Source: Candidatus Bathyarchaeota archaeon
GTDB taxonomy: Archaea; Thermoproteota; Bathyarchaeia; Bathyarchaeales; Bathycorpusculaceae
Assembly: GCA_963782525.1 (NCBI GenBank)
Contig: CAWAKC010000007.1
Coordinates: 192,001 to 256,000 of the forward strand
Reading direction: 5' to 3'
Length of the DNA: 64,000 nt
The position numbers were made by a program, and so were the translations under genes. Position 1 is the stretch's first letter; every line of letters begins with the position of its first letter. Below the pieces are notes generated by a model. It did not search any database and was not told the DNA's origin. It saw nothing but the letters and a program-made list of their open reading frames with translations. Below, piece by piece: positions 52,987-56,729 of the stretch.

Positions 52987-53175
52987 ATGGCTAAAGATTT
53001 AGTGTGCAACATGGATGTAGACGAGAAAACTGCTAAGTACAAAACTATCTACCAAGGCAAATACTATTATTTCTGTGCTCCGGGATGCAAAAAATCCTTC
53101 GAAGCAAACCCCCAAAAATACATTGGAGGTAACTCGTCAAATCACAGTTGCAATTGCGGTCACGACCAATGCTAA
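52987..53175 (+). CDS. YHS/TRASH-domain copper chaperone-like protein
   Basis: DLVCNM...YYFCAPGCKKSF..NPQKY; GGAGGTGA SD; directly after copA. Confidence 0.88.
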   Translation: MAKDLVCNMDVDEKTAKYKTIYQGKYYYFCAPGCKKSFEANPQKYIGGNSSNHSCNCGHDQC

Positions 53176-53373
53176 ATCGTTAAGGTTTAGCCTATGACGT
53201 TCTTTTCTTTTGTTTCTTTAAGCTTTTTTCGCTCGGCAAATTTTGGTATTTTTATTCTTTTGATGAGCACCAAATAAGGGACAAACGCGTGCTCAATATC
53301 TTACGAAAATTTATTATATAAAAAGCTCGTTTTGAAGTATAGTGAGTCTGATTACTCACTCTTGGCGATAGAT

Positions 53374-53697
53374 ATGGAAAATTTGGAATCAAAGAATAAA
53401 CCGCAGACAGAGGCTCCAACTCTGGATGGGTTAATCAAAAGGGAATGGGAAATGATCATTGAACTCCACAAAATGCTCAAAGACCCTGAACTCACAGTAA
53501 CTGAGAGGACACGGGTAGCCACAGTTTTTGCCTTCCACGCAAACACATTGAACAGGATGCTAACCCAAAAGGGCGAAAAAAACCAGTTTGAAGACCAAAA
53601 CTTGGGGGACTATGTGAGAGGCATAGAACCAAGGGTAGCTAGACGTTTTAGGCGTGACTTTAGAGTATGGAAGAAAGCACTTACGTCGAGAAGGTAA
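53374..53697 (+). CDS. Small helical protein in the terminase small-subunit position
   Basis: 107-aa predicted helical protein with an Arg-rich C-terminus, overlapping terL by 31 nt; TATATAAA upstream. Confidence 0.65.
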   Translation: MENLESKNKPQTEAPTLDGLIKREWEMIIELHKMLKDPELTVTERTRVATVFAFHANTLNRMLTQKGEKNQFEDQNLGDYVRGIEPRVARRFRRDFRVWKKALTSRR

Positions 53698-55136
53698 TTA
53701 ACGATCCTGAATTCGCGTTCCAAGCCTATAATGATCTTAGGCGAAGACCCAAAGCCTTCAAAGAACTATGCTCTTACCGTGAAGTGACACGCAAACTTGT
53801 ACAAGATCCTGCGTTCTTTGCCATTTTAATGTGCGGCGACGGCTGGCTAAATAAAGCACCCAACCACCAGAAACTTCTTCAAGACCAGAGTTCAAGGCAG
53901 ATCGCTGTTTGTGGAAGAGGCTGGGGAAAAAGCCTTGTTTTTAGCCGAAAAAACCTCTGGCTTCTCTTCACAAAACCCAATTGCGAAAGTCTGATAATCA
54001 GCAGTACTCAACGCCAAAGCATGATCATGTTTGACTATTGCTACTCCACCATAATGGCAAATCCGCTTATGCGCGATATGCTTCAACGTCCTGGAACGAC
54101 GCGCACAGTTATTAAGCTAAAACCCCCGATAAACAGTAAACTCATCGCGTTGCCCTGTTCCCCAGATAAGCTCAGAGGTTATCATCCTGACTGGGTCTTT
54201 CTTGATGAGGCAAGCATTATCCCAACTGAGATGATCACTAGTGAAATCATGATGATGCTCACAAAACCCAGTTCCTCCTTAGTTATGAGCGGAACACCTA
54301 TGGCGTTTGACCACGTTTTTCGCAAAGCTTTCCTGGACACAAAACGCTACTCAATACATCATTACCCAAGCGATTCCAGCCCTCTTGTGAGTCAAGCGCA
54401 ACTCGAGGAATGGCGAGACATGATGACCAAGGAAGAATGGCAAAGAGAAGTTGAAGCGCTCTGGGTCGAAGCAACCCAGACTTTCTTTCCCATGGATCTC
54501 ATAGCAAAATGTATAGACCCTGAACTGGACAATCCAGCTTCCCCAAACCAGTATATCCAAGACATAGAACACATCGACAGCCAACAGTTGATCGGCAGGT
54601 ATTTTGGGGGTTTAGATTTGGGCAAACAAATTGACTTTAGCGTTCTGGTGGTGGTTCAGCTAACAGATGATGGCGAAGTTAGGCTGGTGCATAAGCGCCA
54701 GTTTCCTCTGGGCACGTCCTACCCAGAAGTTATCGCTTACGTAGCCAAAGCCTGTCAAGCCTTCAACTTTGACGGAATGTACGTTGACAAAACGGGTATA
54801 GGCGACGCCGTAGTGGATGAGCTCGAGGGTATAGGTATTCCAGAAGTAAAAGGCGTCTTCTTTACGGACGCAGAGAAAGAGAACATGCTCAACTACCTCA
54901 AATTACTAATGGAGAAAAAACAACTTCGCTTACAAGGCGGGGACAAGCAGCTTATTGCCCAAATTAACGAGCAACAATACGAGTACCTCCAGCCAAGCAC
55001 AGCGCAAGAACACATCCATATGAAATATAGGCACCCCAGAGGCAGACACGACGACCAACTATTTGCTTTAGCGCTAGCCTGTTATGCAACCAAAGAAGCC
55101 CAACCAGAACAGTTCGTTTTCATGGTCCCAAGATAA
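53667..55136 (+). CDS. Phage-type terminase large subunit
   Basis: HQ motif, Walker A GRGWGKS, LRG...VFLDEA Walker B, SGTP coupling motif, RNase H acidic residues GLDLG...DFS, VDKTGIG, HDD..FALALA. Confidence 0.9.
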   Translation: MEESTYVEKVINDPEFAFQAYNDLRRRPKAFKELCSYREVTRKLVQDPAFFAILMCGDGWLNKAPNHQKLLQDQSSRQIAVCGRGWGKSLVFSRKNLWLLFTKPNCESLIISSTQRQSMIMFDYCYSTIMANPLMRDMLQRPGTTRTVIKLKPPINSKLIALPCSPDKLRGYHPDWVFLDEASIIPTEMITSEIMMMLTKPSSSLVMSGTPMAFDHVFRKAFLDTKRYSIHHYPSDSSPLVSQAQLEEWRDMMTKEEWQREVEALWVEATQTFFPMDLIAKCIDPELDNPASPNQYIQDIEHIDSQQLIGRYFGGLDLGKQIDFSVLVVVQLTDDGEVRLVHKRQFPLGTSYPEVIAYVAKACQAFNFDGMYVDKTGIGDAVVDELEGIGIPEVKGVFFTDAEKENMLNYLKLLMEKKQLRLQGGDKQLIAQINEQQYEYLQPSTAQEHIHMKYRHPRGRHDDQLFALALACYATKEAQPEQFVFMVPR

Positions 55137-55150
55137 CAAAGCACAAATCT

Positions 55151-55501
55151 TTATCCTTGCTCAGAAACCGAACTTTTCAAAGCGTCTTCAATCTCACCCC
55201 TCAACTCAGAATCGCGCACCTTAAGCAACAACCCAACCAGACGGCCCGCAATATTTACCTCCACCCCTCCTTCTCCGCGGTAAAATCGCCTTCCCTTGCG
55301 TAACCAATCAACTAAAACCCGAGCCTCAGCCTCAAAACCTTCAATGTTTCTTTCAGGAAAAACCAAAAGCTCACCCTCCACACAAACGCCCATAAACTGC
55401 TCAAAAGCACCAGTTACGGTACACCCTCCTGCAGAAGCTACACTCTTGAAATCACTGTAAAGCTGGGCTTCAAACCTAAAGCCCTTAAAGACCTTAGCCA
55501 A
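55151..55501 (-). CDS. Putative ribbon-helix-helix DNA-binding protein
   Basis: TTG start with AGGGG SD; KVFKGFRFEAQLYSDFKSVA...TVTGAFEQFM strand-helix-helix pattern. Confidence 0.6.
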   Translation of the reverse strand: MAKVFKGFRFEAQLYSDFKSVASAGGCTVTGAFEQFMGVCVEGELLVFPERNIEGFEAEARVLVDWLRKGRRFYRGEGGVEVNIAGRLVGLLLKVRDSELRGEIEDALKSSVSEQG

Positions 55502-55515
55502 CGCACAAACCCCTG

Positions 55516-55550
55516 TATAAACAAAATATATAAACAAAATATAAACAAAA
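55516..55550. repeat. Three direct repeats of TATAAACAAAA
   Basis: Exact copies at 55516-55526, 55529-55539 and 55540-55550, over the promoter region of the RHH-like gene. Confidence 0.85.
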
Positions 55551-55745
55551 CGCCCAACGTCAACAAACACCTCTCAATCAAACAGTGAATAAGCTAGAGG
55601 AAGCATGTTTCGGGTCCTCATGCAAAAGCTCCCTATATTGTCCATGGTTAAAACACAGTTAAAATTCTTTTTTACAGTTTTAACTCATTCAGAGTGCTCA
55701 GAGACTTAAGAAAAAAAGGGTTTAATTTTGGATAATTAACACAAG

Positions 55746-56525
55746 TTAAGTTGTTTTCTTTATCAAAAGCTCACAAATACCGTCGATGCTTTGAACTGCA
55801 GCGATTTCCTTGTTTTTTAGCGGGGTTTCTCCAAGCATATCTGCCTCGATTACTTTTTGGTCCCATGGCACAAAAGCTAGAACCTCAATGCCGTTTTGGT
55901 CAGCAAAAGTTTGGATAGCATTTTTCTGGGTGTCGTTCATTACGCGGTTACCTATAAGATAGAGTTGTTTCATGCCCGCAGCCATTGCCATATCATGGAT
56001 GTGCTTTGCGATTTCCAGCGATTTCAGGTTAGAATCAGCGACAATTAAGAGGGCATCGACTTCTTTTGCGGTGCCCCTGCCGATGTGTTCCACGCCTGCC
56101 TCCAAATCCAAGACCACTGCCTCGTCGCGTTCCACGATTAGATTCCGCAGGAGCGCTCGGATAACGGCGGTTGGGGCACACATACAGCCTGCCCCCATGG
56201 AGTGAACTGTTCCCATAACAATTAAATTTACGCCAAGAGGGGTAGGAACAGAGTACTGTTTCACGATGTCGTCGACACTGAAGTTCAGATTGTAGACGCC
56301 TGAGTAACCCGTACTCGTTTTTGACTCAATCAAGGGTTTATTTTCTGAAATAGGAACTATCTTACGGGTTTCCTCCGTTGACAACCCCAACGTTAACCCC
56401 AAATTCGGAGAAGAATCCGCATCAATTCCTATAGTTTTTAAACCGCGTTCAGAAAAACCGCGGGCCAAGCCGCCAGCGATGAGAGTTTTGCCAACGCCGC
56501 CTTTACCAGAAACAGCAACCTTCAT
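55746..56525 (-). CDS. cooC: CooC-like Ni-insertion ATPase (second copy)
   Basis: MKVAVSGKGGVGKT, IDAD..PNL, GAGCMC, DLEAGVEHIGRGT. Confidence 0.9.
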   Translation of the reverse strand: MKVAVSGKGGVGKTLIAGGLARGFSERGLKTIGIDADSSPNLGLTLGLSTEETRKIVPISENKPLIESKTSTGYSGVYNLNFSVDDIVKQYSVPTPLGVNLIVMGTVHSMGAGCMCAPTAVIRALLRNLIVERDEAVVLDLEAGVEHIGRGTAKEVDALLIVADSNLKSLEIAKHIHDMAMAAGMKQLYLIGNRVMNDTQKNAIQTFADQNGIEVLAFVPWDQKVIEADMLGETPLKNKEIAAVQSIDGICELLIKKTT

Positions 56526-56729
56526 ACAATCACAAACTAAAAATAATTTCATAGTCAAACTAATTTACATTTTCCCTACCCCAAAACATTGGCAACATAA
56601 TTTTTTGGCGCAACAACAGCGCTCTCAGGCAACCTAGTCTACTTTGGCTTAACACATTCGCATTCACGATAGCAAGTACTAGTGCTGGCAAAGGGTATTT
56701 TTTATCTGCCTACTTTAGAGATAAATGGG

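What the first reader, a model, noticed from the sequence alone, without database searches (positions are those of the whole stretch)
53264..55550. Orphan terminase cassette (TerS-like, TerL, convergent RHH-like gene) with no other viral genes
Seen: an uninterrupted TerL with ATPase and nuclease motifs, an overlapping small helical gene, and a convergent RHH-like gene, set between copA/YHS and cooC. There is no portal, capsid, tail, integrase or replication gene anywhere in 64 kb, and no decay in the cassette although other accessory genes in the window are pseudogenised. Established: terL is normally followed by portal and head genes. Inference: a maintained, domesticated module. Options are a GTA-like or transduction-promoting packaging unit working in trans, a satellite that hijacks helper heads, an antiviral dominant-negative or decoy terminase, or a mobile unit using the RNase H-fold nuclease.
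Basis: partly seen in the sequence, partly recalled or inferred. Interest (0 to 1): 0.8.

Follow-up and report, generated by a model that had tools for sequence, protein, structure and literature searches.

The report
Orphan viral terminase kept by Bathyarchaeia
A DNA-packaging enzyme pair taken from a head-tailed virus sits alone, intact and under purifying selection in the chromosomes of one family of Bathyarchaeia, so it probably still does something, most likely in conflicts with related viruses.

Summary
The cassette is real. It holds a ~107-aa helical protein gene that overlaps an intact 489-aa TerL by 31 nt, and a convergent ~116-aa RHH-like gene preceded by three direct repeats.

It is not a one-off. 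The small+TerL pair recurs in 45 Bathyarchaeia species genomes and 80 metagenome contigs. TerL identity is 61-99% where whole.

The family is viral in origin. In 2 of 97 distinct loci with enough upstream flank, the same pair closes a structural-gene module. Those viral copies nest inside the orphan tree. None of the viral structural proteins matches the 45 genome loci or the window.

Syntenic orphan pairs give TerL dN/dS of 0.06-0.12, and every ATPase and nuclease motif is invariant in 39 intact copies. Six of 43 assessable genome copies have decayed.

Distribution is narrow and patchy: 14 of 401 class genomes, nearly all in one family. The TerL tree partly disagrees with the host tree.

No inverted or direct terminal repeats, integrase or tRNA flank it, so it is not a transposon or a recognisable satellite. 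Cognate structural genes are missing from 30 of 42 carrier genomes, which argues against a self-contained GTA.

Best reading: an exapted orphan terminase that acts in trans on related viruses. The mechanism is inferred, not shown.

The parts
53245..55665 (.). DNA block shared as a unit with close relatives whose flanks differ.
   Evidence: Blastn breakpoints against L040, L041, L042, L078 and L080 fall at about 53245-53300 on the left and 55663-55667 on the right. The right edge is an ~870-bp deletion in the window relative to L040-L042, not an element end.
53309..53328 (+). AT-rich TATA-like stretch upstream of the small gene; presumed promoter (inference).
   Evidence: Read directly from the sequence. 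It is conserved in L040-L042 and L078.
53342..53361 (+). 7-bp inverted repeat AGTGAGT-N6-ACTCACT between the TATA-like stretch and the ATG; a possible operator or 5' hairpin (inference).
   Evidence: Sequence. It is conserved in the closest relatives, and other lineages carry different palindromes at the same place.
53374..53697 (+). Small three-helix protein of ~107 aa (ORF open from 53332), in the TerS position, overlapping terL by 31 nt.
   Evidence: - The AlphaFold2 model has pLDDT 81.8 with helices 17-35, 42-65 and 86-105.
- It has no Pfam, PHROG or NCBIfam family and no specific fold match.
- BLASTP finds it upstream of TerL in 43 of 46 loci. It holds the same place in viral contigs.
- dN/dS is 0.03-0.37.
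53667..55136 (+). Intact terminase large subunit of 489 aa: ASCE ATPase plus RNase H-fold nuclease.
   Evidence: - Family matches are.
- The ATPase motifs GRGWGKS, LDEA and GTP, and the nuclease motifs GLDLGK, VDKTGIGD and HDDQ, are invariant in 39 intact orthologues.
- dN/dS is 0.05-0.13 for pairs with dS below about 0.8, apart from two distant pairs at 0.134 and 0.161.
55151..55501 (-). Convergent ~116-aa protein (ORF open to 55570) with an N-terminal RHH-like part and a C-terminal helical domain.
   Evidence: - The model has pLDDT 78.
- The weak best Foldseek rows include RHH antitoxins and ParG, at E about 1-2. RHH_5 matches 2 of 22 members at E 0.11. An Atlas RHH_5 cluster scores 0.90.
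- It is present in 24 of 46 loci.
- dN/dS is 0.07-0.38.
55516..55550 (-). Three tandem direct repeats (TTTGTTTATA core, spacing 11-13 nt) just upstream of the convergent gene's start; presumed operator overlapping its TATA region.
   Evidence: - Repeat calls are; the three exact copies occur only here in the window.
- Read by eye from the printed sequences, a matching and co-varying triple repeat lies upstream of the gene in the 24 loci that carry it.
- A strict exact-7-mer triple is found in 8 of 35 loci with the gene and 0 of 67 without it.

Best explanation
**What it is.** This is the packaging enzyme of a head-tailed Bathyarchaeia virus that has become a stand-alone chromosomal module and is kept functional.

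**Shown.**
- The small+TerL pair is the same pair that closes a structural module in a few viral contigs.
- In nearly all other loci it stands alone among cellular genes of one Bathyarchaeia family.
- Related species carry it at the same chromosomal place.
- These orphan copies evolve under strong purifying selection with all ATPase and nuclease residues intact.
- The C-terminal tail, where terminases usually touch the portal (recalled), looks the same in orphan and viral copies.

**Inferred mechanism.**
- The small protein recruits TerL to DNA.
- The enzyme acts in trans when a related virus replicates in the cell. It cuts or engages that virus's concatemers and competes for its procapsid portals.
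- The net effect is most likely interference with virus assembly, that is, a superinfection-exclusion type of defence.
- The convergent RHH-like protein binds the three repeats over its own promoter and autoregulates. It is an accessory part, present in about half of the loci.

**How sure.**
- About 0.8 that this is a selectively maintained, enzymatically competent, virus-derived orphan terminase.
- About 0.35 for the specific interference mechanism.
For: **Identity and intactness.** TerL family matches are. Motifs are invariant in 39 intact copies, with 146 of 489 columns invariant.

**Viral origin.**
- L118 (TerL 65% identical) and L039 (75%) carry tail and structural genes directly upstream of small+TerL.
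- These viral copies nest inside the orphan tree.

**Orphan state is the rule.**
- None of the L118 or L039 structural proteins matches the 45 genome loci (up to 10 kb of flank each side) or the window.
- 3 of 98 loci with at least 1.5 kb of upstream flank show structural genes. Two of those three are the same contig, so the count is 2 of 97 distinct loci.

**Selection in the orphan state.** Syntenic orphan pairs give TerL dN/dS as follows:
- window with L040, L041 and L042: dS 0.10-0.13, dN/dS 0.06-0.12
- L054 with L068: 0.066
- L066 with L069: 0.067
- L063 with L065: 0.071
- L058 with L064: 0.079

**Architecture.** N and C termini look the same in viral and orphan copies.

**Accessory-gene behaviour.**
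- Distribution is patchy: 14 of 401 class genomes, with 12 of 103 in family f1 and 9 of 40 in the genus.
- The TerL tree disagrees with the host RpoA' tree at depth.
- The unit lies in a variable region between copA/YHS and cooC that spans 0 to 29 kb in genus genomes.
- Defence genes lie near some copies: pAgo E 6.5e-155, type IIG restriction-modification, and HmaB/HmaC.

**Contrast with ordinary decay.** In bacterial prophages, terminase genes are preferentially lost during decay (PMC7744054, passages read).

**Weak expression hint.** Contigs from four metatranscriptome libraries cover all three genes at 90-97% identity.
Against: - No direct evidence exists for any activity or phenotype.
- None of the three proteins matches a PADLOC model.
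- The near-versus-far neighbour scan gave no usable enrichment. It returned 93 model hits among 134 near ORFs and 17 among 101 far ORFs, but the tool reports models, not members, and my rough member estimate is about 10% in both sets. The 10 neighbours were hand-picked.
- A catalytically intact enzyme is not what a simple dominant-negative decoy would need.
- 6 of 43 assessable genome copies have decayed, so the module is dispensable.
- The small protein has no demonstrable TerS fold.
- The RNA evidence comes from contigs, which cannot exclude DNA carry-over.
Confidence: 0.4

Rival explanations
1. Helper-dependent packaging unit, the satellite-like or GTA-like 'transduction promoter' reading. 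The orphan small+TerL recognises a site near itself and loads chromosomal DNA into procapsids of a resident or infecting related virus. That spreads itself and neighbouring genes.
For: - The terminase is intact, with the same termini as viral copies.
- The TerL tree disagrees with the host tree, and two carrier genomes hold two copies.
- It lies in variable regions.
- 12 of 42 carrier genomes hold a homologue of a cognate structural protein elsewhere.
- The window's genome has a head-tail provirus-like region on contig C4.
Against: - 30 of 42 carrier genomes, the window's own included, lack the cognate structural marker.
- No conserved repeat is tied to the small+TerL pair itself. The only conserved repeats travel with the convergent gene: 0 of 67 loci without that gene have them.
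- There is no integrase, replication gene or conserved cargo.
- Flanks are not co-transferred between lineages.
Confidence: 0.22
2. A cellular DNA-processing role unrelated to capsids, for example an ATP-driven nuclease used in repair, restriction of foreign DNA, or chromosome or plasmid handling.
For: - Purifying selection and intact motifs, with no capsid genes in most carrier genomes.
- ParA/MinD-type genes lie within about 3 kb in 11 of 46 loci, from two unrelated ParA families.
Against: - The gene is found in only 14 of 401 class genomes and is often lost, so it is not a housekeeping function.
- The architecture is unchanged from the viral copies.
- The ParA adjacency could be chance: about 6 such genes occur per genome.
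Confidence: 0.12
3. An inert remnant of decayed proviruses. The low dN/dS reflects divergence that accumulated while the genes were still in active viruses.
For: - Viral-context copies nest in the tree.
- Intermediate stages exist. Three contigs keep only the two viral genes next upstream of the small gene, alongside the pair (L195, L196, L208).
- 6 of 43 genome copies are broken.
- Paralogous TerL loci in the same genome are decaying.
Against: - Pairs that share orphan flanks, and so diverged as orphans, still give dN/dS of 0.06-0.08 at dS up to 0.66.
- Exactly the same two genes survive in about 95% of loci.
- Terminases are normally lost early in prophage decay (PMC7744054).
Confidence: 0.1
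4. A selfish addiction or toxin-antitoxin-like pair. The TerL nuclease is toxic and the RHH-like protein, or the small protein, restrains it, so loss of the module is penalised.
For: - The weak best fold rows for the convergent protein include RHH antitoxins AtaR, RelB and DinJ.
- Toxin-antitoxin genes are frequent neighbours.
Against: - The RHH-like gene is convergent, not co-transcribed.
- It is absent from 22 of 46 loci where TerL is mostly intact.
- Broken TerL copies keep the RHH-like gene in L070, L078, L080 and L081.
Confidence: 0.08
5. A transposon-like mobile unit that uses the RNase H-fold nuclease as its transposase.
For: - The RNase H fold is shared with DDE transposases (established knowledge, recalled).
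- The unit occurs in differing contexts.
Against: - There are no terminal inverted repeats or target-site duplications at the block edges.
- The window's genome holds one copy.
- Contexts are stable within host subclades.
Confidence: 0.03

Closest known systems
[quoted passage not shown]
   Same: - Two-domain ATPase plus RNase H-fold nuclease with all motifs.
- PDB sequence matches 5m1f and 4zni.
- HGTV-1 TerL is 28% identical at E 1e-36.
- A small gene sits directly upstream and overlaps it.
   Different: No portal, capsid or tail gene lies next to it in the window or in the 45 genome loci. It is chromosomal and vertically inherited within host subclades.
Domesticated genes of defective prophages (recalled: Bobay, Touchon and Rocha 2014; read here: PMC7744054)
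   Same: Virus-derived genes kept under purifying selection in a host chromosome after the rest of the virus is gone.
   Different: In bacterial data, terminases are among the genes lost first (PMC7744054). Here the terminase pair is the part that is kept, repeatedly.
Gene transfer agents such as RcGTA (recalled; PMC5026251 seen in a search listing only)
   Same: Host-maintained packaging genes of viral origin.
   Different: GTAs keep a full head-tail gene set in the genome. Here 30 of 42 carrier genomes lack the cognate structural marker.
Phage satellites that redirect or block helper packaging (SaPI TerS, recalled; PLE of Vibrio cholerae, abstract seen in the listing)
   Same: A chromosomal element meddling with a virus's packaging step. 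This is the kind of action proposed here.
   Different: - From recall, satellites carry an integrase, replication genes and regulators. They typically encode a TerS or an inhibitor, not a TerL.
- None of those satellite genes is present here.

Membership tests
Terminase large subunit (TerL) | N-terminal ASCE ATPase with Walker A, Walker B and coupling motif. | tested here: met
   GRGWGKS, LDEA and GTP are invariant in 39 copies. The region aligns to the P74-26 ATPase 4zni. phrog_2 scores E 2.4e-35.
Terminase large subunit (TerL) | C-terminal RNase H-fold nuclease with conserved acidic residues. | tested here: met
   Terminase_6C scores above its cut-off. The region aligns to the Thermus phage terminase nuclease 5m1f (depositor's name: phage terminase large subunit), with GLDLGK, VDKTGIGD and HDDQ conserved.
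Terminase large subunit (TerL) | Encoded within a head-morphogenesis module, next to portal and capsid genes. | tested here: not met
   No structural-protein match occurs in the window or in the 45 genome loci. The feature is met only in viral contigs L118 and L039.
Terminase small subunit (TerS) | Gene immediately upstream of terL and co-inherited with it. | tested here: met
   The overlap is 22-34 nt, 31 nt in most loci. BLASTP finds the gene in 43 of 46 loci. The arrangement is the same in viral contigs.
Terminase small subunit (TerS) | Recognisable TerS family or fold: DNA-binding domain plus ring-forming core. | tested here: inconclusive
   No Pfam, PHROG or NCBIfam match. Fold matches are only generic helical ones. 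The PDB profile search gave no significant match (best E 0.12).
Ribbon-helix-helix regulators (CopG/Arc/MetJ) | N-terminal strand-helix-helix DNA-binding domain. | tested here: inconclusive
   The model shows two helices after an unmodelled conserved FKGFRF stretch. Support is weak: Foldseek rows for AtaR, RelB, DinJ and ParG at E about 1-2, RHH_5 in 2 of 22 members at E 0.11, and no significant match in the PDB profile search (best E 0.77).
Ribbon-helix-helix regulators (CopG/Arc/MetJ) | Tandem repeat operator at its own promoter. | tested here: met
   Three repeats lie upstream of the start, read by eye in the 24 loci that carry the gene, and they co-vary with lineage. Binding was not tested.
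Gene transfer agent | Head and tail structural genes maintained in the same genome. | tested here: not met
   The window's genome lacks the cognate structural proteins. 30 of 42 carrier genomes lack the 287-aa marker. Pfam portal and capsid models find nothing in the window's genome, but they also miss the provirus-like region on contig C4, so their sensitivity is low.
Phage or virus satellite (PICI, P4 or PLE type) | Integrase, replication genes and a discrete integrated element. | tested here: not met
   No PF00589 match on contig C7. No tRNA nearby. No neighbour family is shared by more than 12 of 46 loci.
Known anti-phage defence systems (PADLOC) | Match to a catalogued defence protein model. 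| tested here: not met
   None of the three proteins has a match at E up to 0.1.
Type II toxin-antitoxin module | Two adjacent co-transcribed genes that always occur together. | tested here: not met
   The RHH-like gene is convergent to terL and is present in only 24 of 46 loci.
DDE / RNase H-fold transposon | Terminal inverted repeats, target-site duplication, and multiple copies. | tested here: not met

The most novel reading that the evidence does not exclude
Bathyarchaeia have captured a complete viral terminase (recognition subunit plus motor-nuclease) as a stand-alone conflict device. It works on the packaging step of related viruses, either blocking them or stealing their capsids. That would be a class of virus-derived system built on TerL that is not in the defence or satellite catalogues searched here.
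Probability: 0.35. Interest if true: 0.85.

Novelty: new variant of a known kind. Interest (0 to 1): 0.62.

Why it matters
Terminases are treated as the most reliable hallmark of a tailed virus. They are used to call proviruses and to build virus trees. Here a terminase family lives mostly as a host-maintained orphan, which has three consequences.

- Terminase-only 'viral' calls in Bathyarchaeia, and the IMG/VR-style contigs based on them, can be wrong.
- It offers a natural case of which viral parts a cell or island finds worth keeping.
- It gives a testable candidate for an archaeal system that acts at the DNA-packaging step. Little is known about that step in archaeal virus-host conflict.

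None of my six literature searches found a description of such orphan terminases.

Tried and rejected
- **Complex prediction** of TerL + small + 2x convergent protein: score 0.00, no verdict. It is not used as evidence either way.
- **Fold and profile searches** for the small protein and the convergent protein gave no significant match. Only weak RHH-type rows appeared for the latter.
- **Atlas search** gave leads only.
- **Pfam portal (PF04860) and capsid (PF05065) models** found nothing in the window's genome. They also miss the provirus-like region on contig C4, so this negative is weak.
- **PHROG scan of contig C4 proteins** named only TerL and a tape-measure-like protein. The capsid and portal there are inferred from gene order only.
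- **Terminal repeats and target duplications.** The 8-bp match ATTCTTTT at both block edges, read by eye, was rejected as a target duplication. The right edge is an ~870-bp deletion relative to L040-L042, and the left-edge comparison showed no duplication either.
- **The repeat motif** was sought at the small gene's promoter and is not there.
- **Defence-island enrichment, near versus far**, was inconclusive. The tool reports model counts, not member counts.
- **ParA/MinD adjacency** was left as an observation.
- **RNA libraries** are contigs only, 90-97% alike. Strand, ends and levels cannot be told, and parts without cover mean nothing.
- **The bacterial promoter and terminator scan** is not applicable to archaea.
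- **Not run:** The search of protein representatives, codeml or RELAX branch tests, and supplements of papers (closed; they might list such genes in Bathyarchaeia provirus surveys).
Full report
**1.

- The window has three ORFs at the stated place: 53332-53697 (+), 53667-55136 (+) and 55151-55570 (-).
- The middle one is a terminase large subunit.
  - phrog_2 scores E 2.4e-35, and 10 of 12 PHROG matches are TerL families.
  - Pfam Terminase_6C scores above its cut-off.
  - PDB sequence matches are the Thermus phage terminase nuclease 5m1f and ATPase 4zni.
  - The closest cultured-virus TerL is Halogranum tailed virus 1, at 28% identity and E 1e-36.
- From alignments with relatives, the small gene most likely starts at the ATG at 53374, giving 107 aa.
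- The convergent gene most likely starts at the TTG at 55501, giving about 116 aa.
- The flanks are a copA-like ATPase plus a YHS gene on one side and a CooC/MinD-type gene on the other.
- The window holds no match to related viral structural proteins, contig C7 holds no PF00589 integrase, and there is no tRNA at 40-64 kb.

**2. It is a recurrent unit, not a one-off**

- The protein search found 646 relatives at E <= 0.001. The best 120 are 70-98% identical and 435-505 aa long. Where a source names them, they come from Bathyarchaeota/Bathyarchaeia.
- 45 loci came from species-representative genomes. Their record titles name Bathyarchaeota or Bathyarchaeia, 'uncultured archaeon', or in one case Crenarchaeota. 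Contigs reach 2.3 Mb.
- BLASTP finds the small gene directly upstream in 43 of 46 loci. This count includes the window and one IMG/VR contig. The overlap is mostly 31 nt.
- The convergent gene is present in 24 of 46 loci. It is usually adjacent, but in seven loci 1-8 kb of toxin-antitoxin and other genes lie between it and terL.
- No other gene family is shared by more than 12 of 46 loci.
- In the window's genome the small and convergent genes are single-copy.

**3. Origin: a viral terminase**

- Two IMG/VR contigs carry the same small+TerL pair at the end of a run of structural genes. TerL is 65% identical in L118 and 75% in L039.
  - The run includes 287-aa and 182-aa proteins and a 693-aa or 763-aa protein.
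  - A 126-aa or 129-aa and an 85-aa or 91-aa protein lie just upstream of the small gene.
  - In L118 an ABC-ATPase-like gene lies downstream.
  - A provirus-like locus in a related genome (L034) has the same gene order.
- In trees rooted on paralogues, these viral-context copies nest among the orphans.
- In the pooled set of 128 loci, the contexts break down as follows. The pool holds some duplicate contigs: 111 tree rows, 103 of them different.
  - 3 of 98 loci with at least 1.5 kb upstream show structural genes. L039 and L149 are one contig, so this is 2 of 97 distinct loci.
  - 6 of 98 (5 distinct) keep the two genes that lie next upstream.
  - 32 of 86 loci with at least 1.5 kb downstream have the convergent gene.
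  - Of 76 loci with both flanks, 47 have neither marker, 27 have only the convergent gene, and 2 are viral-type.
- L195, L196 and L208 are intermediate forms: four viral genes without the structural module.

**4. The orphans are maintained**

- Pairs that share orphan flanks must have diverged as orphans. They give the following TerL dN/dS by the Nei-Gojobori method:

| Pair | dS | dN/dS |
|---|---|---|
| window - L040 | 0.098 | 0.062 |
| window - L041 | 0.129 | 0.107 |
| window - L042 | 0.133 | 0.124 |
| L054 - L068 | 0.33 | 0.066 |
| L060 - L061 | 0.49 | 0.072 |
| L066 - L069 | 0.60 | 0.067 |
| L063 - L065 | 0.63 | 0.071 |
| L058 - L064 | 0.66 | 0.079 |

- The small gene gives 0.03-0.37 and the convergent gene 0.07-0.38.
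- All catalytic motifs are invariant in 39 intact copies.
- N and C termini do not differ between viral and orphan copies.
- Against universal maintenance, 6 of 43 assessable genome copies are truncated, split or fused: L070, L075, L078, L080, L081 and L082.
- In the same genome, four TerL paralogues of about 30% identity are mostly decaying. One on C1 is N-terminally odd, one on C3 has a stop, and on C6 the neighbouring gene is split. This contrasts with the focal unit.
- For bacteria, terminase genes are reported as preferentially lost from incomplete prophages (PMC7744054, passages read).

**5. Distribution and inheritance**

- In an even draw of 401 genomes of the class, 14 have an orthologue at E <= 1e-120.
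  - In the window's family: the window's own genome plus 12 of the other 103.
  - In its genus: 9 of 40.
  - In another family: 1 of 5, at 52% identity.
- The host RpoA' tree and the TerL tree agree on shallow pairs. At depth they disagree: two TerL lineages cut across one host clade, and G061/G062 change partners.
- Two carrier genomes have two copies.
- So inheritance is vertical over short spans, with transfer or paralogue sorting and loss over longer ones.
- In the genus, copA/YHS and cooC lie 0 to about 29 kb apart. The unit lies in that variable stretch in the window's close relatives.
- The block edges show no inverted repeats or target duplication. The right edge is an ~870-bp deletion in the window.

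**6. The other two proteins**

- The small protein is a three-helix protein with a basic C-terminal helix and pLDDT 81.8. It has no family or specific fold match. Calling it TerS-like rests on its position in both viral and orphan loci.
- The convergent protein has a conserved FKGFRF stretch, then two helices, then a helical domain, with pLDDT 78. Its RHH assignment is weak.
- Three 11-13-nt direct repeats lie just upstream of the convergent gene's start.
  - Read by eye, they are present and co-vary in the 24 loci with the gene.
  - A strict triple is found in 8 of 35 loci with the gene and 0 of 67 without it.
  - The motif is not at the small gene's promoter.
- I therefore read the repeats as this protein's own operator, not as a packaging site.

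**7. Which function**

- *Self-contained GTA.* This is unlikely. The window's genome has none of the cognate structural proteins, and 30 of 42 carrier genomes lack the 287-aa marker.
- *Satellite or transposon.* Neither is supported.
- *What is left.* An enzyme able to act in trans on related viruses, or a capsid-independent nuclease-motor.
- *Why I lean to interference with related viruses.* The gene behaves like an accessory conflict gene: patchy, lost and regained, in variable regions. Some copies lie near pAgo, type IIG restriction-modification and Hma genes.
- *Why that support is soft.* Those 10 neighbours were picked by me from 48 large ones. The near-versus-far scan was inconclusive. 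PADLOC has no model for the three proteins.
- *Expression.* It is hinted at only by metatranscriptome contigs at 90-97% identity from four libraries.

**8. Literature**

- Searches for terminase with Bathyarchaeia, and for orphan, lone or stand-alone terminase, exapted or domesticated terminase, and archaeal satellites, found no description of this unit.
- Passages read concern ordinary viral terminases.
- Supplements were not available.

**9. Verdict**

This is a real, conserved, virus-derived orphan terminase module under purifying selection in one Bathyarchaeia family. The function remains inferred.

Noticed in passing
G000 contig C4, about 9.5-26 kb (loci L116, L117): A head-tail provirus-like region with its own divergent TerL (phrog_2 E 3.6e-30) and a tape-measure-like gene. 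The run of genes is ordered like a head and tail module. Pfam portal and capsid models and PHROGs miss the rest.
   Followed up: partly
G000 C1:446411-448411, C3:74589-77046, C6:13641-17253, C7:54-1914: Four TerL paralogues of about 30% identity. At three of them a Myb/HTH-like small gene lies just upstream. On C3 and C6 a ~483-aa ABC-ATPase-like gene follows (phrog_293 E 1.4e-33). Several are broken or split. The same trio occurs in relatives (L036).
   Followed up: partly
window 55746-56558, and loci L053, L058, L064, L075, L079, L082: A ParA/MinD/CooC-type P-loop gene lies within about 3 kb of the unit in 11 of 46 loci. These come from two unrelated ParA families in two TerL subclades. The window's genome has about 6 such genes, so chance is not excluded.
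   Followed up: partly
window 53175-53332 and 55665; G001, G010, G012, G023, G088, G099: The stretch between copA/YHS and cooC is a variable hotspot, 0 to about 29 kb across the genus. The window lacks an ~870-bp segment with a 148-153-aa gene that L040-L042 carry at 55665.
   Followed up: partly
L119 (IMG/VR contig, 18.4 of 32 kb seen): A TerL 43% identical to the window's sits with a DNA methylase-like gene, large unknown genes and a 402-aa gene at the contig end. I guess that last gene is an integrase; it was not scanned. No structural genes appear in the part seen. It may be a capsid-less integrative element.
   Followed up: no
L058:5373-6890, L065:5576-9073, L079:6533-8959, L195:318-6171: Defence genes lie close to some orphan units: pAgo (E 6.5e-155), type IIG restriction-modification enzymes, and HmaB/HmaC directly upstream of a four-gene form of the unit.
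   Followed up: partly
loci L053, L058, L079 and others, about 100 nt upstream of the small gene: In one TerL lineage the small gene's promoter region carries its own short tandem repeats (ATGTTGAA / ATATTTGG type). These differ from the window's inverted repeat.
   Followed up: no
G043 and G051 RpoA' genes: The RNA polymerase A' gene reads with many stops in these two genomes. This is probably assembly error and is a caution for calling pseudogenes there.
   Followed up: no
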